Assembly: GCF_000517025.1 (NCBI RefSeq)
Contig: NZ_KI912097.1
Span: forward strand, 94,988-118,089
Source of the DNA: Halonatronum saccharophilum DSM 13868
Lineage (GTDB): Bacteria > Bacillota > Halanaerobiia > Halobacteroidales > Halobacteroidaceae
Length of the DNA stretch: 23,102 bases
Direction of reading: 5' to 3'
Within the stretch, counting starts at the first letter, position 1. Each line of letters begins with the position of its first letter. Positions 1-6,598 of the stretch are shown piece after piece. Position numbers and translations under genes: made by a program. The notes beneath the pieces are model-generated. The model searched no databases and was not told the DNA's origin. It worked only from the letters and a program-made list of their open reading frames with translations.

Positions 1-476
1 AGTCCTTATATCCTTATAGGGGATATACTCTTAATAGAGATATACAGGCTTATAGGAGAAATCTAAGGATATATGTAAAGGTAAAGTCTTTTGGAACAAG
101 GAAAGCTAATAACACGGAGGTCTTAATACCTATGAAGTGGTGGTATGGAAACTAATTATAGATAACATACCTTAATATTAGTGAGAGTAGTGGTAAAGTA
201 CCGTTGAAACCTTGATAATAAGAGGTGGAGGAATAGCCACAAGTCAATGTATTAGATTAATATAATTTTATTATTTAACACATAAGGTTCTGGTGAGACT
301 AAGAGAGCAGGGTTAATTCCCGAAGACAGGCTTCTATAGGAACAACTAAAGGAAGTTCTAAGCGACTTATGACTACACTTAGAGAAACTTTGAGGAGCTA
401 CACACAAGCTATGAGCCAGAGTTTCGAGTTCTAAGTTAGGAAATAGTAAAATCCACATAATTTAATACACTTGATG

Positions 477-563
477 GAACGCCGTGTGAGGTGAAAGTCT
501 CACGCACGGTGTGGAGCGGGGGAAAAGTTGGAGATAATATCAAATTCTTACCTATCGTTATCA
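477..563 (+). repeat. Repeat module M, copy 1 (GAACGCC...TCTTACCTATCGTTATCA). Contains hairpin CCGTGTGAGG-TGAAAGT-CTCACGCACGG at 482-509.
   Basis: Direct comparison with 691-779 shows ~75% identity over ~88 nt. Differences inside the hairpin are compensatory (G:C in copy 1 versus A:T in copy 2). Confidence 0.6.
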
Positions 564-690
564 TTGGTTTCTGGTGAGACTAAAAGAAAGTTAGGGAAGA
601 AAGTTTTATCTTCCAATCCTTGCCCAATGGGACTTCAATAGAAGTTTTCAGCTATATATGATAAATAGTAATAATTATCTTATTTTCATA

Positions 691-779
691 GAACGCCTTG
701 TGAAGTTGAAAACTTCATGCAGAGTGTGGAGCAGGGGAAAAGATGGAGATTACACCAAACTCTTACCTATTGCTATACA
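691..779 (+). repeat. Repeat module M, copy 2 (GAACGCC...TCTTACCTATTGCTATACA). Hairpin CCTTGTGAAG-TTGAAAA-CTTCATGCAGAG at 696-724.
   Basis: Same register as copy 1 at a 214-215 nt spacing. The conserved GGAGC(R)GGGGAAAAG(W)TGGAGAT core and the TCTTACCTAT tail are shared. Confidence 0.6.
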
Positions 780-1015
780 TATGAGCCTTGGTAGGAAGGT
801 AGAGATTACTTATATCAGAGTGTTTTGTTTTAACGAACGAGAGTGGTTTTATCGAAAGTAAGCTCAGACGCCCCACCAAGGTAAAAGCCAAAGCCTTGTA
901 GCACGAATGGCAACGCGAAGACAAATCGAAGTATTGAAGTCTACTGACAAAGGTATCTAAAGGATACCAAGGAAGTATGCAGACCGTAACACAAGTGAAC
1001 GCATAGTAGCTTCGA
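763..1015 (+). repeat. Repeat module N, copy 1 (TTACC...GAACGCATA). Non-coding, hairpin-rich, candidate structured RNA.
   Basis: Aligns with 4177-4442. Long identical blocks are shared (TTTTAACGAACGAGA-TGGTTTTATCGAAAGTAAGCTCAGACG, GCCTTGTAGCAC, TTGACAAAGGTATCTAAAGGATACCA, AAGTATGCAGACCGTAACAC). Perfect hairpin GGTATC-TAAAG-GATACC at 952-968. No RBS-led ORF. Confidence 0.6.
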
Positions 1016-1155
1016 AAGGGCCAACATTTGGCGCTCGAGCCTTTAGTGTCTGGGCGGGGACTGGGGGTTTAACTTAGCTAATGTGTTGAGCGTTGGAGCT
1101 ACAGACTAAATCGCAAGTGATTGTATTATTTATTGAGGAGGTTTTAAATTTTAAA

Positions 1156-2157
1156 ATGAATATAGAATATTTAATTGAACAGAAAGTAGGAATAATTAAT
1201 ACTAATAACAATCCTGTAAATTTTAATGGTACAATAGAAGAAATAGTTGATTTAGGTTATGATGTAATTGTTACATTTGCCGATTATGATTTTTCTTTAA
1301 GTTGGAAAGCAGGAGAAAATCCATCTATTAGACATTATAGTTGTGGATTAGGTGAATATCCTATACCTAGCAAATGGGAGTTAAAACATTTTAATGAATA
1401 TATACTATATGAATTATATTATGATAGAAAAGTTATATTATGGTTTAAAGATGATGTAACAAAAGAGAAAGTAGTAGCTTCTATTTTAAATTTTTTTAAA
1501 GATGAACATAAAAAATTTAAAGAAGTTATTGAGACAAAACTTTCTACACAAAAAAATAGAGTAAAGGACATTCCAATCAAATTAACTCATTGTACTGCTT
1601 GTATTGAAGAAGGCTGTATGACAGAATATGTTTGCCATATTACAAGTGTAGAGAACGCTATAAAGATAATAAAAGATGGTAAAATCTGTTCTTCTGCTAA
1701 GGTTAAAGGCATTGATGGTCAAGAATTAGCTATGGAAAAAAGTAATGTTCCAGGAGATCCATCAGATTACTTTGACTATGTAATGTTTGGTTTTGGTAAT
1801 TGTCAAGCGGGAGACCGATTAGTGATAGAAAGAAGATTAGGAAAATTTCCAGAAAAGGAAGATTTAAATGAAAAATTTATTCCTGGGGTAAGATTTTATT
1901 TCAAATATAAAGATTTGATTAAACATTCAGGTTATATTTCAGATGGATATCATTATTTAAAGATAAAAGATTCTATTGATATTTTGCCTAACTTAGCGGC
2001 TATAGCAACATCTGAAAATTTTAAAGATGTTTTAATGGGAAATATTCCAAGTGAAATGCATAAGTATTTTGTTTTTTTAGATCATAGCAAATATGATATT
2101 TGGACTTGGTCACATAATATATATGAAAAAGTTAAAAGAATAGATAAGAGAAAGTAA
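1156..2157 (+). CDS. Hypothetical 333-aa protein. The C-terminal half carries DarT/DUF4433-like ADP-ribosyltransferase motifs (HITSVENAIKIIKDGKI, DYFDYVMFGF). The N-terminal ~165 aa are an unknown domain.
   Basis: Long ORF in the six-frame track. ATG at 1156 is preceded by GAGGAGG at 1135-1141 (long 14-nt spacer). The upstream in-frame TTG at 1093 lacks an RBS. Motif similarity to DarT is recalled from memory, not searched. Confidence 0.6.
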   Translation: MNIEYLIEQKVGIINTNNNPVNFNGTIEEIVDLGYDVIVTFADYDFSLSWKAGENPSIRHYSCGLGEYPIPSKWELKHFNEYILYELYYDRKVILWFKDDVTKEKVVASILNFFKDEHKKFKEVIETKLSTQKNRVKDIPIKLTHCTACIEEGCMTEYVCHITSVENAIKIIKDGKICSSAKVKGIDGQELAMEKSNVPGDPSDYFDYVMFGFGNCQAGDRLVIERRLGKFPEKEDLNEKFIPGVRFYFKYKDLIKHSGYISDGYHYLKIKDSIDILPNLAAIATSENFKDVLMGNIPSEMHKYFVFLDHSKYDIWTWSHNIYEKVKRIDKRK

Positions 2158-2700
2158 ATACGACTTCGTCTAACATAGGCTTAGCGGTGCGTCCTATCAG
2201 GGTATATATTCTAGTGAGTGTAAATCTCATCAGAGTAAAGGTTAGCCAGCAGCTCTGTATCGAGTCTTGGAGGTGTTATGGTAACATAACACTTTAAGCG
2301 TAGACAGAAAGTTAGCAAGGTAGAATCGACTGGATACGGTTTTTGTGGTTTTCACGGAGAGTCCGAGAGGACTCGTAGGGATTGGTTTGCCAGCGGTGAA
2401 CTGTATTGAGCTCCGAAAACCGTGTAAATGAGAAGGGTCGAAGCTGTCGCTAAAGTGGAAGACAGTAACTACTTATGCATAAAAGGCGAGCATAAGTAAT
2501 CATCTCCGGAGTCTAAGGCACTACCTCGCTAAACATCAAGAATATATAGAAACCTAGGGAGGTCCTATTAGGTCTTTCCGCAAGGAGAGTATGTCTGATG
2601 AGCTGAAGAGGTAAAGAAGACAAACGCCAATAGGAAGTCGGATACTCTCATAGTACCAAAGAAACTGGGTAACTCTAGTGGAGGGAAGGAGTAGTAACAG

Positions 2701-4062
2701 ATGAAACTGCAAGCAAGGGACACATCTATCGGACACAGAACCGAAGAAAGGGTGAGAACAAAACTTGCTCGCATAGCACAAAGAGCGAAGAAAGATAAAG
2801 AGGTAAGATTCTGCTCTCTAAGTCATCTACTCTATAAAAGCACGCTGATAGAAGCATTTTGGAGACTATCTCCAAAAGCAGCACCAGGGGTAGATAAAGA
2901 AACTAAGAATAGCTATGCAGAAAATCTAGAAGAAAATATTAAGGATTTGAACAGTAGACTTAAAAGCAACTCATTTAAACCTAATCCAGTAAGAAGGAAA
3001 TATATAAAGAAGACTGATAGTGGTAAAATGAGACCTCTTGGCATACCAGCACTAGAAGATAAGGTAGTGCAAACAGCCTTAGTAATAATAATGGAAAATA
3101 TATATGAACAAGACTTTCTACCATTCTCTTATGGGTTTCGCCCTAACAGGAACTGTCATGAAGCTTTGAAGAATCTAAGTAAAGATATAGGAACAAAGAA
3201 GGTGAACTATGTAGTAGACGCAGATATCAAAGGATTCTTTGATAATGTAAGCCATGAATGGATGATGAAGTTTCTACAACATAGAATAAATGACACCAAA
3301 ATATTAAGATTAATCAAAAGATTCTTAAAAGCAGGAGTGATAGAAGAAGGCAAATATTATAAAAGTAAAAGTGGAGTACCACAAGGAGGAACACTATCTC
3401 CTTTATTAGCAAACATCTACCTTCACTATACAATAGACCTATGGTTTGAAAAGGTAGTGACTAAGTATTGTAAAGGGGAAGCATATATGACAAGGTATGC
3501 TGATGATATAGTATTTTGCTTTCAATACAAAAGAGATGTAGAAAGGTTTTATAGAGCATTGAAAGGAAGACTTAATAAATTTAATCTAAAACTATCAGAA
3601 GAAAAGACCAAAGTAATAGAGTTTGGAAGATTCGCTCAAAGAGATGCCAAAAGGAGAGGTAAGAATAAAGCAGAAACCTTTGATTTTCTGGGATTCACCC
3701 ATTATTGTGGGAAAAGTAGAAGAGGAAAATTTAAAATCAAATGGAAGACATCAAGAAAGAAATTCAAGGCAAAGATAAATGAATTCTCTAGATGGATAAA
3801 AGAGAATAGACATCTTCCAATAAACGAAATATGGAGAAAGGTAACCCAGAAGATAAAAGGACATTTCCAATACTATGGAGTAAGCGATAATTGGAAATGG
3901 CTAGAGAAATATAAAACAGAAGTGATAAATCTACTGTACAAAGGGCTTAATAGAAGAAGCCAACGAAATAGTATGAAGTGGGATAAATTAAGAAGATTAA
4001 CCGAAGTATTCCCATTGCCAGAACCAAAGATCAGAGTGAATCTTAACTCCGCTTTTGTGTAA
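2701..4062 (+). CDS. ltrA-like: Group II intron reverse transcriptase/maturase (RT domains 0-7 plus domain X; no HNH endonuclease domain).
   Basis: Hallmark group II RT blocks are present: RPLGIPALEDKVVQTA, FSYGFRPNRNCHEAL, VVDADIKGFFDNVSHE and the YADD catalytic box in TRYADDIVFCF. The maturase-like C-terminus (GHFQYYGVSDNWKWL) has no Cys/His-rich En domain. RBS GGAGGGAAGGAG lies upstream of the ATG. Confidence 0.92.
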   Translation: MKLQARDTSIGHRTEERVRTKLARIAQRAKKDKEVRFCSLSHLLYKSTLIEAFWRLSPKAAPGVDKETKNSYAENLEENIKDLNSRLKSNSFKPNPVRRKYIKKTDSGKMRPLGIPALEDKVVQTALVIIMENIYEQDFLPFSYGFRPNRNCHEALKNLSKDIGTKKVNYVVDADIKGFFDNVSHEWMMKFLQHRINDTKILRLIKRFLKAGVIEEGKYYKSKSGVPQGGTLSPLLANIYLHYTIDLWFEKVVTKYCKGEAYMTRYADDIVFCFQYKRDVERFYRALKGRLNKFNLKLSEEKTKVIEFGRFAQRDAKRRGKNKAETFDFLGFTHYCGKSRRGKFKIKWKTSRKKFKAKINEFSRWIKENRHLPINEIWRKVTQKIKGHFQYYGVSDNWKWLEKYKTEVINLLYKGLNRRSQRNSMKWDKLRRLTEVFPLPEPKIRVNLNSAFV

Positions 4063-4077
4063 AGAGGATCATCTGGG

Positions 4078-4110
4078 GAGCCGTATGCCTAAATTGGGCA
4101 CGTACGGTTC
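4078..4110 (+). other. Group II intron domain V (catalytic hairpin).
   Basis: 34-nt hairpin matching the domain V consensus (GAGCCGUAUG...CACGUACGGUUC), 16 nt after the intron-encoded protein's stop codon. Confidence 0.85.
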
Positions 4111-4176
4111 TGAGAGGGGTATACGCCAACTATACAAGAAAAGATTAACCCTTAAGCAGAAGGCGTATATATCTAC

Positions 4177-4442
4177 TTACCAAATATGACCCTTAGTAAG
4201 AAGGTAGAGATGACTTATATCATATTGTATTTTTTTAACGAACGAGATTGGTTTTATCGAAAGTAAGCTCAGACGTCGCGAAGCCCAGGGATGTTGTATG
4301 TCCAGCGAAGCTGGACATATCCAATGGGCCAACGCCTTGTAGCACCAATGACAATTTAAAGATAAAAATATTGAAGTTCATTGACAAAGGTATCTAAAGG
4401 ATACCAGGCAAGTATGCAGACCGTAACACCGTGAGCGCATAA
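4177..4442 (+). repeat. Repeat module N, copy 2. It begins exactly at the intron 3' junction and carries an extra perfect hairpin ATGTCCAGC-GAA-GCTGGACAT (4298-4318) that copy 1 lacks.
   Basis: Aligns with 763-1015 (see that entry). Perfect hairpin GGTATC-TAAAG-GATACC at 4389-4405. Ends 17 nt before the stop of the convergent minus-strand gene. Confidence 0.6.
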
Positions 4443-4458
4443 CAGATATTTCTTTGTT

Positions 4459-5184
4459 TTATTTAACCCTATAGTCAACTAATATTTTGCTTTCTAACAC
4501 CTTTAATTTAGGTTGTTGGATATCATCTAGATCAATCTCTTCTACATAACTATTTAGATTACTTCCTTTAACTTCTTCAATAGCAGCAATGCCAACAAAG
4601 TTTAAACTACTTAAATTCAATAATATATCCAAAGTTTCTCTACTATCTTCTAGGCTATTCTTTAATAAGGTCTCTTTATATTTTTTAACATTGCTAAAAC
4701 TATAGTAAGCTTCATTAATATTGTATTCTATATTTACATGACGATTATAGTTAACCCTTCTTTGGCTAGGATCTAGTTCTTTAATTAAATCTAACACTTC
4801 TAAAGTAGTATCATAAAGACTATCTGGATCATTATCAATTATTTCAATTACTAATTCGCCTGCATACTTATAGACATTTCTTTCTTTTAGCTTAGTATTA
4901 TCACTCCAAGAAAAACCCTTATCCTCTATATCTTCCTCTTTAAAAGCTTCTAAACTTAATAATTCTTCCAATAGATCATTAATGGATCTTCTTACTTCCT
5001 GCTGAATTTGTGATCTGTTTCTCCCATCACCATTGATATTAAGGTGGATCTTAGTCATATTAGTTTGGCTTATAAGATTTGAACTTCCTAAAGTACTTAT
5101 AACCTTTTCCCCACTAGCTTCAAGTTTAGAAGGAAAGAAGAGAAGAAGTAGAGATAATATGATCAAAAAATAGATCTTCTTCAT
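4459..5184 (-). CDS. Secreted hypothetical protein with an N-terminal signal peptide. Possibly SIMPL/DUF541-like (assignment weak).
   Basis: ORF with ATG at 5184 (MKKIYFLIILSLLLLF...) preceded by GGAGGTG with a 7-8 nt spacer. A hydrophobic leader is followed by acidic mature protein. The upstream in-frame extension to 5244 lacks an RBS. Confidence 0.7.
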   Translation of the reverse strand: MKKIYFLIILSLLLLFFPSKLEASGEKVISTLGSSNLISQTNMTKIHLNINGDGRNRSQIQQEVRRSINDLLEELLSLEAFKEEDIEDKGFSWSDNTKLKERNVYKYAGELVIEIIDNDPDSLYDTTLEVLDLIKELDPSQRRVNYNRHVNIEYNINEAYYSFSNVKKYKETLLKNSLEDSRETLDILLNLSSLNFVGIAAIEEVKGSNLNSYVEEIDLDDIQQPKLKVLESKILVDYRVK

Positions 5185-5394
5185 AGAAAAACACCTCCAA
5201 TTTATTTCTTTCTTATGTATAAAAGCTTCTCTAATAAGATTCAATATCCTTTATATAGAATATGAAAGGTTCTTTATTTAAATGATTCAATTATAGAATA
5301 GTCACTTATGACTATTAAAAAATAAGAATAAAACTTATATTTAGATGTAAGTTTGGATAAATTAAAAAAGAAAATTATTATAAGGAGGGCAAAA

Positions 5395-5766
5395 ATGAAA
5401 AAAATAATTAAAACTATTGCATTAGCAAGTTTATATTTAATTGTGGCTTTCTGGATGAATAATTATAGTGAAGGGCCAACTAATTATAAAAACGAAGAAG
5501 TTTGGGCCAACAGCCCAGCTCTAAGTGGGGAGATGCTCTCTTACTTAGATAGTTTAAGAACTGGAGTAGGGGATGATATAGATAGGGTAATCCTCTTAGT
5601 AGAAGATAAGATAGATAGACAAAAAGAGAGAACAAAGGAAAGTATCTTAAGAGCTGCTAGATTTAGTAGTGGAGCAGTCTCAACCCAAAATTTAAACCGA
5701 TCAATAGAAGGTGCAGAAGCTAGATTAGATGCTAAGTTTAATCATATAAATTATTTACTAGAATAA
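5395..5766 (+). CDS. Small membrane-anchored hypothetical protein (123 aa).
   Basis: ATG at 5395 preceded by AAGGAGGG with a 6-nt spacer. One N-terminal transmembrane helix. Followed by a terminator. Confidence 0.6.
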   Translation: MKKIIKTIALASLYLIVAFWMNNYSEGPTNYKNEEVWANSPALSGEMLSYLDSLRTGVGDDIDRVILLVEDKIDRQKERTKESILRAARFSSGAVSTQNLNRSIEGAEARLDAKFNHINYLLE

Positions 5767-5794: not shown

Positions 5795-5838
5795 AGAAGA
5801 TGAGTAAATCCTTTAATAAGGTCTCATCTTCTTTTTTC
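5795..5838 (+). terminator. Rho-independent terminator.
   Basis: Stem AGAAGATGAG / CTCATCTTCT followed by TTTTTTC. Confidence 0.6.
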
Positions 5839-5929
5839 TTTAATTAATCCACTTAAAACTTAGTCACTTATGAACATAAAATATAATATGAAAATTTAAA
5901 TATACATATATATAAGGAGGAATGATTTA

Positions 5930-6598
5930 ATGAAAAAGAAAAGCTTTATAACCAAGATTGGCAAGTTTAGTTGGATCTTTCTAGTAGCCTATTTAATCTT
6001 AGGGTGGAGGTATCTAGGAGTAGGAATTCTAGCCTTATTGTGTATTCTAGCACCACCAATTGTAGCAGTTTATAATGATGGTCGAATCTGGTGTGGCAAC
6101 TTATGCCCTAGAGGGAGTTTTAATGATAATCTTCTTAAAAAAATTAGTCGTCAAAAAATAATTCCCCAAGCATTTAGCTCGATATATTTGAGAGTATTTG
6201 CTTTATTCTTCTTATTTTTTATCTTCTTTACCGGTATCTTTTATAGTTCTGGAGAGTTCAATGTGATTTCAGCTTTATTATATAGAATAGTCTTATTTAC
6301 CACAATAATAACTATTATCTTAGGAGTAGTAATAAATCAAAGAACTTGGTGCAAATTCTGTCCTATGGGGTCTCTAGCGACTTTTTTAACCTTATGTAAA
6401 AGGAATATAGATGTGAAAGTACAGAGTGTACAGGTAAAAGAAGAGAAGTGTAATAAGTGTAACTTATGTGAGAAAGGTTGTAAAATGGACTTAAAGCCCC
6501 ATTCTTTTGACAGAGCTAAGAACAATGACCTAGACTGTCTCCACTGCCAAAAGTGTATAAAAATCTGCCCCCAAGATGCATTGAAGATAGATAGTTGA
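5930..6598 (+). CDS. Membrane-bound 4Fe-4S polyferredoxin (NapH/MauN-like CxxCP motifs plus two C-terminal CxxCxxCxxxCP ferredoxin motifs).
   Basis: AAGGAGG RBS. Motifs CGNLCPRGS, CKFCPMGS, CNKCNLCEKGC and CLHCQKCIKICP. Several transmembrane segments. Confidence 0.7.
   Translation: MKKKSFITKIGKFSWIFLVAYLILGWRYLGVGILALLCILAPPIVAVYNDGRIWCGNLCPRGSFNDNLLKKISRQKIIPQAFSSIYLRVFALFFLFFIFFTGIFYSSGEFNVISALLYRIVLFTTIITIILGVVINQRTWCKFCPMGSLATFLTLCKRNIDVKVQSVQVKEEKCNKCNLCEKGCKMDLKPHSFDRAKNNDLDCLHCQKCIKICPQDALKIDS

What the first reader, a model, noticed from the sequence alone, without database searches (positions are those of the whole stretch)
1..1090. Mosaic of repeated non-coding modules with compensatory hairpin changes: candidate novel structured RNA array upstream of the ART-like gene
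Seen in the sequence: (1) module M occurs at 477-563 and 691-779, 214-215 nt apart. The hairpin CCGTGTGAGG-TGAAAGT-CTCACGCACGG in copy 1 becomes CCTTGTGAAG-TTGAAAA-CTTCATGCAGAG in copy 2, so G:C changes to A:T on both strands, i.e. covariation. (2) Module N occurs at 763-1015 and 4177-4442. (3) A shorter motif GGTT(T)CTGGTGAGACTAA(R)AGA occurs at 284-310 and 567-593. No RBS-led ORF fits these regions; the two ORFs in the track have no RBS and cut across repeat boundaries. Conserved sequence with stem-preserving substitutions is the signature of functional RNA rather than of decaying mobile-element debris. The window starts inside the array, so it may extend upstream. I could not match it to any riboswitch, T-box, OLE-like or type III antitoxin family I know.
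Basis: seen in the sequence. Interest (0 to 1): 0.7.

Follow-up and report, generated by a model that had tools for sequence, protein, structure and literature searches.

The report
Nested group II intron fragments
The repeated "modules" are pieces of group II self-splicing introns, a well-known class of mobile ribozyme, that have inserted into one another and partly decayed; they are not a new kind of structured RNA.

Summary
The repeats are real, and the hairpin covariation is real, but both belong to a known family. Rfam places module M (477-561, 691-776) in RF00029, group II intron domains V-VI. It places module N (865-994, 4288-4431) in RF02003, a group II D1-D4 segment. All four matches exceed the gathering scores, which meets the finder's own refutation criterion.

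Window 1-561 is collinear with the 3' two-thirds of ~830-nt ORF-less group II introns on Clostridium baratii and C. difficile plasmids. "Motif 3" is a conserved segment of those introns. 562-776 is a second, diverged 3' fragment that starts exactly after the first intron's 3' splice site. N1/N2 homology starts exactly after that fragment's 3' splice site.

N1 and N2 are 5' fragments of an intron type found complete in Natroniella acetigena. Each carries a different internal deletion, and both lack the reverse-transcriptase ORF and domains V-VI. A complete intron with an RT/maturase ORF (2187-4135) interrupts the 5' flank of N2.

The region is best read as a nest of intron-into-intron insertions in Halonatronum saccharophilum.

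One unexplained item remains. A ~150-nt flank with a covarying long-range helix accompanies every N-type copy.

The parts
1..561 (+). Intron A: 3' two-thirds of an ORF-less group II intron (M-type). Its 5' ~400 nt lie upstream of the window. Domains V-VI are at 477-561, and motif 3 (284-306) lies just 5' of a short domain IV stub.
   Evidence: Collinear alignment with the ~830-nt ORF-less introns of the C. baratii plasmid (L004) and C. difficile BI1 dnaE (L005). RF00029 scores 62.6 bits at 477-561.
562..776 (+). Fragment B: the 3'-terminal ~215 nt of a second, diverged M-type intron, running from motif 3 (567-587) through a D4 stub to domains V-VI (691-776). It has one broken pair in domain V and no domains I-III in the window.
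   Evidence: Homology to A 281-561 starts at 562, the first base after A's predicted 3' splice site. RF00029 scores 41.1 bits with a flagged mispair.
777..870 (+). N1, 3' part of the conserved 5' flank ('leader') that precedes N-type introns. Homology with N2 (from 4182/4184) starts right after B's 3' splice site.
871..1056 (+). N1, domain I fragment of an RF02003-type group II intron. A ~59-nt deletion at 870/871 removes the 3' strand of the leader helix, the candidate 5' splice site and most of the GGGUGAAAGUCC core. Homology to full-length copies ends at ~1056.
   Evidence: RF02003 scores 71.9 bits at 865-994. Alignment to Natroniella L007/L006 and metagenome L008/L009. BLAST to L008 covers 872-1056 at 84%.
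1156..2157 (+). Host gene between N1 and N2 (333 aa); it is not part of any intron. It is the finder's 'ART-like gene'.
   Evidence: 100% identical to a Halonatronum saccharophilum hypothetical protein and a member of a widespread ~270-aa family. No Pfam or NCBIfam match. The predicted fold has a PTP-like and a DarT-like part.
2163..2186 (+). N2 leader, 5' piece (ACTTCGTCTAACATAGGCTTAGCG). Bases 2178-2186 form the 5' strand of the covarying long-range helix.
   Evidence: Aligns with the leader starts of L007, L008 and L009.
2187..4135 (+). Intron D: a complete group II intron inserted into the N2 leader. It has 5' GUGCG at 2187, D1-D4 at 2221-2521, an RT/maturase ORF at 2701-4062, domains V-VI at 4076-4135 and a 3' AC end.
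   Evidence: RF02005 scores 130.1 bits and RF00029 40.9 bits. RVT_1 E = 2e-40. TIGR04416 group II RT/maturase scores 374.5 bits against a cut-off of 300. Leader homology is interrupted exactly at 2186 and 4136.
4136..4292 (+). N2 leader, remainder. Bases 4277-4285 (CGCGAAGCC) form the 3' strand of the long-range helix. The candidate 5' splice site is at 4292/4293 (GAU|GUUGU).
   Evidence: The splice-site assignment is an inference by analogy with intron D.
4293..4441 (+). N2, domain I fragment of the RF02003-type intron. A ~23-nt deletion near 4327/4328 removes GUGAAAGUCCC and part of the next hairpin. The fragment is truncated at 4441, just before the convergent gene 4459-5244.
   Evidence: RF02003 scores 50.3 bits at 4288-4431. 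Alignment. BLAST to L008 covers 4271-4439.

Best explanation
The region is a cluster of group II intron retroelements of three lineages that have inserted into one another in the chromosome of Halonatronum saccharophilum.

The proposed order of events is as follows. Two copies of an RF02003-type intron (N1, N2), each preceded by a ~150-nt structured flank, sat on either side of a host gene. An ORF-less M-type intron (B) inserted into the flank of N1. A related ORF-less intron (A) then inserted into B. A complete intron carrying its own reverse transcriptase/maturase (D) inserted into the flank of N2. N1 and N2 later lost their 3' parts (domain IV ORF, V, VI) and suffered different internal deletions.

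What is shown: the family identity of every piece, the collinearity with full-length relatives, the deletions, and the coincidence of homology break-points with predicted 3' splice sites.

What is inferred: insertion happened by retrohoming (reverse splicing of excised intron RNA into DNA, then reverse transcription). Intron D is probably still able to splice and move. A could splice only if its unseen 5' part is intact and a maturase is supplied in trans. B, N1 and N2 are inert remnants.

For: Family identity:
- Six Rfam matches exceed gathering scores, all on the + strand: RF00029 at 477-561, 691-776 and 4076-4135; RF02003 at 865-994 and 4288-4431; RF02005 at 2221-2521.
- The domain V-VI fold on six sequences is 94.3% paired, with 9 pairs changed on both sides and 0 of 500 shuffles as good, and it works only in register 0.
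- Module M matches 803 plasmid records, many annotated under ltrA group II RT/maturase genes. It also matches phage records at up to 94.5% identity.

M-type pieces:
- Window 40-561 is collinear with ORF-less introns that carry RF02004 in the 5' part and RF00029 in the 3' part. One of them splits the C. difficile dnaE gene.
- B aligns to A 281-561 starting at 562, one base after A's ...UAU 3' end.
- N1/N2 homology starts at 777-779, directly after B's ...UAU 3' end.

N-type pieces:
- Full-length or near-full relatives occur in the canonical order D1...ORF...D5-D6: Natroniella L007 plus L006 (429-aa IEP, TIGR04416 380.7 bits) and metagenome L008.
- N1 lacks ~59 nt and N2 lacks a different ~23 nt relative to these.
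- No IEP remnant or further intron piece is present elsewhere in the window.

Intron D and context:
- The leader piece 2163-2186 aligns with the leader starts of the other copies and is separated from the rest by intron D.
- The intron D IEP passes the curated group II RT/maturase cut-off.
- Public short-read assemblies break inside N1 (~884), as expected of a dispersed repeat.
Against: - The 5' parts of A and B and the 5' piece of the N1 leader would lie upstream of the window, and I could not retrieve them. The A-in-B-in-N1 nesting therefore rests on the three 3' junctions only.
- Fragment B could instead be a 5'-truncated retrotransposition product or the result of a template switch.
- The candidate 5' splice site of the N-type (GUUGU) departs from the GUGYG consensus and was assigned by analogy, not tested.
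- There are no expression or splicing data.
- The origin of the N1-gene-N2 arrangement, with both N copies 3'-truncated, is not explained by retrohoming and needs later deletion or recombination.
Confidence: 0.9

Rival explanations
1. The finder's reading: a new family of structured non-coding RNA, arranged as an array of modules upstream of the ART-like gene and kept by selection for its own function.
For: The modules are non-coding and module M keeps its stems through compensatory changes. No RBS-led ORF fits the region.
Against: Every module reaches the gathering score of a curated group II intron family. The modules are collinear with parts of complete introns elsewhere. The copies carry lesions that a functional RNA would not tolerate: a broken D5 pair, and deletions of the conserved D1 core.
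Confidence: 0.02
2. A circularly permuted (CP) group II ribozyme. Domains V-VI (691-776) are followed directly by domain I-like sequence (777-1056), as in the D5-D6-D1-D2-D3-D4 RNAs of Roth et al. 2021, which back-splice to make RNA circles.
For: The local order D5-D6 then D1 fragment on the same strand matches the CP order (PMC8637638).
Against: - CP RNAs are ~900 nt, with complete D1-D4 after a linker bounded by AY and GUGYG.
- Here only ~280 nt follow D6. No GUGYG lies between 777 and 871, and the ~59-nt deletion removes the D1 start.
- The D5-D6 and the D1 piece belong to different lineages, and each occurs in canonical order elsewhere.
- The junction coincides with a normal 3' splice site followed by sequence that continues the N leader.
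Confidence: 0.02
3. The pieces have the same identity, but the juxtapositions arose differently. Fragment B is a 5'-truncated cDNA copy (abortive target-primed reverse transcription) or the product of RT template switching or tandem partial duplication, rather than an intron split by insertion of A. N1 and N2 would be recombination products.
For: B begins at an internal position of the intron and keeps only the 3' end, which is the polarity expected of incomplete reverse transcription from the 3' end (mechanism from established knowledge of group II retrohoming). A and B are only ~79% identical, so no recent duplication is involved.
Against: A's 3' end abuts B's first base exactly, which insertion of A into a complete B explains in one step. 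A truncated B would need a second, coincident insertion at its truncation point. Intron D shows that clean intron-into-flank insertion does happen in this same locus.
Confidence: 0.25
4. The fragments have been domesticated. For example, N1 might act as a structured 5' UTR that controls the 333-aa gene, or A/B/N pieces might assemble in trans into a working ribozyme.
For: N1 ends ~100 nt before the gene's RBS, on the same strand. Two independent read sets carry the same N1(part)-gene-intron D arrangement.
Against: Homologues of the gene are widespread, and nothing indicates intron sequence upstream of them (contexts were not examined). N1 has lost the conserved D1 core. The promoter and terminator scans are no better than shuffles. 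No pair of fragments complements the other to give a full D1-D6 set of one lineage.
Confidence: 0.04

Closest known systems
Bacterial group II introns (Rfam RF00029 Intron_gpII; clan CL00102 families RF02003, RF02004, RF02005)
   Same: The domain V-VI sequence and fold, the D1-D4 segments, an RT/maturase ORF in domain IV of intron D, the 5' GUGCG and 3' AY ends of D, and all elements on one strand.
   Different: Only intron D is complete. A is cut by the window, and B, N1 and N2 are fragments with lesions.
Nested or 'twintron'-like group II intron insertions and intron fragments in bacterial genomes (general knowledge; not looked up here)
   Same: Introns interrupted by other introns, with homology resuming exactly at the inner intron's splice site. 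ORF-less and truncated copies sit beside a complete one.
   Different: Two of the three insertions lie in the conserved 5' flank of the N-type intron rather than inside its ribozyme. The outer 5' halves were not seen.
ORF-less group II introns of clostridial plasmids (C. baratii NZ_CP124308; C. difficile BI1 NC_017177, inside dnaE)
   Same: Collinear with window 1-561 at 68-83% identity, with the same motif 3, short D4 stub and D5-D6.
   Different: Those copies are complete (~830 nt, RF02004 5' part present). The window copy lacks its 5' third because of the window edge.
Group IIC introns such as B.h.I1 (Toor et al. 2006, PMC1702495)
   Same: The N-type candidate splice site lies ~8 nt after the 3' strand of a stem, within the 3-11 nt range reported for IIC. 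Intron D sits just after a small UAAC...GUUA-type hairpin. Both IEPs are short (429-453 aa). That paper's report of 5' splice sites non-adjacent to the ribozyme offers a way for a 5' flank to travel with an intron.
   Different: Domain V of both D and the N-type has the AGC triad, not the CGC that the paper gives as the IIC hallmark. The 'stem' encloses ~120 nt rather than a terminator loop.
Circularly permuted group II ribozymes (Roth et al. 2021, PMC8637638)
   Same: The local order is D5-D6 followed by D1-like sequence.
   Different: No AY...GUGYG-bounded linker, no complete D1-D4, and the pieces come from different lineages. See the membership test.

Membership tests
Group II intron (ribozyme) | Domain V hairpin with a catalytic triad at its base, a 2-nt bulge and a GNRA-type loop, followed by domain VI with a bulged branch-point A | tested here: met
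   RF00029 scores above the gathering value at 477-561 (62.6 bits), 691-776 (41.1) and 4076-4135 (40.9). Pair counts are 94% paired in register only. M2 has one C-A mispair in domain V.
Group II intron (ribozyme) | Domain I-IV sequence and structure upstream of domain V in the same element | tested here: met
   Met for intron D (RF02005, 130.1 bits, at 2221-2521). A's 3' part of D1-D4 is collinear with complete relatives. Not met for B, which has no D1-D3. N1 and N2 have only D1 fragments with deletions.
Group II intron (ribozyme) | 5' GUGYG and 3' AY boundaries | tested here: inconclusive
   D has GUGCG at 2187 and AC at 4134-4135. A and B end in AU at 561 and 776, and their 5' ends were not seen. 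The N-type candidate is GUUGU (N2 4293), assigned by analogy. In N1 this region is deleted.
Group II intron (retroelement) | Intron-encoded reverse transcriptase/maturase in domain IV | tested here: met
   The intron D ORF 2701-4062 has RVT_1 at E = 2e-40 and TIGR04416 at 374.5 bits against a cut-off of 300. A and B are ORF-less, like their clostridial relatives. N1 and N2 have lost it, and tblastn finds no remnant.
Group II intron | Self-splicing or maturase-assisted splicing and mobility | not testable with these tools
   Needs RT-PCR or RNA-seq across 2186/4136 and 561/562, or in vitro splicing.
Circularly permuted group II ribozyme (Roth 2021) | One ~900-nt RNA in the order D5-D6-linker-D1-D2-D3-D4, with the linker bounded by AY and GUGYG | tested here: not met
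   After D6 (776) only ~280 nt of intron-related sequence follow. No GUGYG lies in 777-871, and the D1 core is deleted. Definition taken from PMC8637638.
Circularly permuted group II ribozyme (Roth 2021) | D5-D6 and D1-D4 belong to one co-evolving RNA | tested here: not met
   The M-type D5-D6 occurs with an RF02004 5' part in canonical order. The N-type D1 occurs with its own IEP and D5-D6 in canonical order.
Group IIC intron (Toor 2006) | Domain V with CGC in place of AGC and a distal stem 2 bp shorter | tested here: not met
   Read from sequence. D has GGGAGCCGUAUGCC...GGGCACGUACGGUUC, so the triad is AGC, with a short distal stem. The N-type (L008 1028-1062) has AAGCCGUGUACGGGAGACCCGUACGCACGGAUU, also AGC. 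M-type D5 has CGC but a full-length distal stem, and its relative lies inside an ORF.
Group IIC intron (Toor 2006) | [quoted passage not shown] | tested here: inconclusive
   The N-type has a covarying 8-bp helix whose 3' strand ends ~8 nt before GUUGU, but it encloses ~120 nt. D follows a weak 4-bp CUAA...UUAG hairpin plus CG.

The most novel reading that the evidence does not exclude
The ~150-nt flank that precedes every RF02003-type intron copy examined (window N1 and N2, Natroniella, two metagenome contigs, all in unrelated gene contexts) is a structured element in its own right. It is closed by a long-range helix that covaries among copies.

It either travels with the intron, for example through use of an upstream non-adjacent 5' splice site as seen in vitro for B.h.I1, or it is a dispersed repeat that serves as a dedicated landing pad for at least three intron lineages (N-type, D, M-type).

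Either way it would be a homing-site or 5'-extension structure that, as far as I could check, has not been described for group II introns.
Probability: 0.25. Interest if true: 0.4.

Novelty: already known. Interest (0 to 1): 0.12.

Why it matters
As submitted, the finding does not matter much. It is a textbook mobile ribozyme caught by standard Rfam models, and it should be annotated as such: one apparently intact intron and four fragments.

It has some practical value. It explains why public assemblies break at this locus, and it warns that 'covariation between two local repeats' is what any pair of diverged intron copies will show.

The only part with some research interest is the conserved, covarying 5' flank of the RF02003-type introns and its apparent role as a hot-spot for insertion of other introns. 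If confirmed, this would bear on how introns that lack an endonuclease domain choose and perhaps carry their target sites.

Tried and rejected
- Extending the window upstream. Exact-protein look-ups of the 333-aa ORF and the IEP returned only short-read contigs that begin at window ~884. The two small ORFs in 1-861 are not on record. My DNA pattern is present twice in the window, yet the genome-contig scan did not return the H. saccharophilum genome.
- Finding N elsewhere. Module N alone (779-1155) has no plasmid match, two viral-contig scans were empty, and the Natroniella leader has no plasmid match.
- A first pair-count on the D5-D6 alignment used a mis-registered bracket string and gave 46% pairing. 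The +2 slide control exposed the error and it was redone.
- I first took GUCGCG as the N-type 5' splice site. I dropped it after the leader helix showed that this string is the 3' strand of a stem, and after comparison with intron D placed the start at GUUGU.
- I first called D and N 'class C' from a remembered resemblance to the O. iheyensis intron. I withdrew that label because domain V has AGC, not CGC.
- attC-like and target-site-duplication readings of the leader were considered from the sequence and rejected. The core-site order is wrong, and the flanking ACGTC strings are not identical in L008.
- Promoter and terminator scans of 1-4600 were no better than shuffles.
- The CP group II reading was rejected (see the membership test).

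Full report
**Observation.**
- Module M: 489-561 and 704-776 are 79% identical at a spacing of 215 nt. BLAST extends this to 471-561 vs 685-776, E = 8e-16.
- Module N: 779-870 vs 4184-4275 is 90% identical and 929-992 vs 4366-4429 is 91%. With gaps the match is 779-1005 vs 4184-4441, E = 2e-42.
- Motif 3: 281-306 vs 562-587 is 85% identical.
- The small ORFs in the region have no Pfam match and are not on record as genes.

**Identity.** A gathering-threshold Rfam scan of the whole window gives six matches, all group II intron families and all on the + strand:
- RF00029 (domains V-VI) at 477-561, 691-776 and 4076-4135.
- RF02003 (D1-D4-4) at 865-994 and 4288-4431.
- RF02005 (D1-D4-6) at 2221-2521.

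Module M is therefore domains V-VI, and module N contains a domain I segment. It also includes one broken C-A pair.

On six domain V-VI sequences the known fold is 94.3% paired, with nine pairs changed on both sides. No shuffle out of 500 does as well, and the signal vanishes when the 3' partners are slid by one to three columns. A first attempt used a mis-registered structure string and was discarded. The covariation is real, but it belongs to a ribozyme domain that has been known for decades.

**Module M and motif 3.** BLAST of 1-1155 against plasmids finds 803 records. Most hits are to the domain V-VI part and lie beside ltrA RT/maturase genes. Phage records match at up to 94.5%.

Window 40-306 also matches unannotated DNA on clostridial plasmids. 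Two such loci were fetched. Both carry an ORF-less intron of about 830 nt, with RF02004 in the 5' part and RF00029 at the 3' end. In C. difficile BI1 the intron sits between two halves of dnaE.

Window 1-561 aligns collinearly with the 3' two-thirds of these introns. Motif 3 is a conserved segment just 5' of a short, variable domain IV stub. The window therefore starts about 400 nt inside an ORF-less intron, which I call A.

Bases 562-776 (B) align to A 281-561: motif 3, a shorter stub, then domains V-VI. This homology starts at 562, the first base after A's ...UAU 3' end.

**Module N.** N has no plasmid or viral match. A degenerate pattern found two contigs of Natroniella acetigena, and a second pattern found two metagenome contigs. 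These show the complete element in canonical order:
- L007 carries the 5' part (RF02003, 115.9 bits).
- L006 carries the continuation, with a 429-aa RT/maturase and domains V-VI.
- L008 is an ORF-less deletion derivative with both ends.

Against these, N1 lacks about 59 nt, including the GGGUGAAAGUCC core, and stops being homologous at ~1056. N2 lacks a different 23 nt and stops at 4441. tblastn with both IEPs and blastn with all references find no further intron pieces in the window. N1 and N2 are independent, decaying 5' fragments.

**Nesting.** All N-type copies share about 150 nt of alignable sequence upstream of the ribozyme, which I call the leader. It begins ACKTCR.TAACA...GYTTAGCG. In the window this start is at 2163-2186, immediately 5' of the GUGCG of intron D. 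The rest of the leader resumes at 4136, immediately after D's 3' AC.

Intron D (2187-4135) is complete. Its D1-D4 match scores 130 bits. Its 453-aa ORF passes the curated group II RT/maturase cut-off at 374.5 against 300. Domains V-VI are present.

In the other copy, N1/N2 homology begins at 777-779, directly after B's ...UAU 3' end. Three homology break-points thus coincide with three predicted 3' splice sites: 561/562, 776/777 and 4135/4136.

The simplest account is D inserted in the N2 leader, B inserted in the N1 leader, and A inserted in B. The outer 5' halves of the second nest lie upstream of the window and could not be fetched. That part is an inference, and a 5'-truncated or template-switched origin of B remains possible.

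**Organism and neighbour gene.** The 333-aa ORF between N1 and N2 is 100% identical to a hypothetical protein of Halonatronum saccharophilum. This organism belongs to the same order as Natroniella, which fits the shared N-type intron. The ORF belongs to a widespread ~270-aa family with no Pfam, NCBIfam or PDB sequence match.

**Alternatives.**
- The circularly permuted group II class (PMC8637638) has the order D5-D6-D1..D4, which resembles 691-1056. It needs a linker bounded by AY and GUGYG and a complete D1-D4 of one lineage, and none of this holds here.
- I first labelled D and N as class C. The IIC hallmark given by Toor et al. (PMC1702495) is CGC in domain V, whereas both have AGC, so I do not file them there.

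**Residual puzzle.** RNAalifold on the four leaders predicts an 8-bp helix between the leader start and a segment ending about 8 nt before the candidate 5' splice site GUUGU. In the window the strands are 2178-2186 and 4277-4285. The paired strings in the four copies are AGGUU/AACCU, AGUUU/AAACU, GUGUU/AAUAC and GGCUU/AAGCC. It is 96.9% paired, with four pairs changed on both sides, and only in register.

There are only four sequences, so this is suggestive and not proven.

**Verdict.** This is a known kind of element and it is now correctly identified. It is of low interest apart from the leader.

Noticed in passing
window 2163-2186 + 4136-4292; L007 413-553; L008 249-~400; L009 minus strand ~381-228: A ~150-nt flank precedes every RF02003-type intron copy, in unrelated gene contexts. 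It has a covarying 8-bp long-range helix (window 2178-2186 with 4277-4285) and a competing small UAAC...GUUA hairpin. Three intron lineages sit in or after it.
   Followed up: partly
[not shown]
   Followed up: partly
L008 1-62 (minus strand) and L008 249-1186: The metagenome contig carries an ORF-less deletion derivative of the N-type intron in which only ~25 codons of the IEP are left. It also carries, head-to-head, a second leader start on the opposite strand that continues into different intron-like sequence.
   Followed up: no
L005 (C. difficile BI1 NC_017177) 2581-3385: dnaE is annotated as two separate CDS ('DNA polymerase III subunit alpha' and 'OB-fold nucleic acid binding domain-containing protein'). 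They are separated by an unannotated ~800-nt ORF-less group II intron (RF02004 + RF00029).
   Followed up: partly
window 472-562: Domains V-VI of intron A are 94.5% identical to a stretch of Listeria phage LPJP1 and 81-89% identical to stretches of several jumbo Bacillus, Staphylococcus and Clostridium phages. This is unusually close for hosts so distant from a soda-lake Halanaerobiales species.
   Followed up: no
window 5270-5349 and 5832-5910: An 80-nt direct repeat (72.5% identity) lies in the two intergenic regions upstream of the adjacent + strand ORFs 5353-5766 and 5930-6598 (a ferredoxin-like protein). There is no Rfam match.
   Followed up: no
window ~884; loci L001-L003: Two independent short-read assemblies (SRR190844, SRR3928346) both start their contigs inside N1. 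This is consistent with further N-type copies elsewhere in the genome collapsing the assembly. The species' genome was not returned by the genome-contig scan, although the pattern occurs twice in the window.
   Followed up: no
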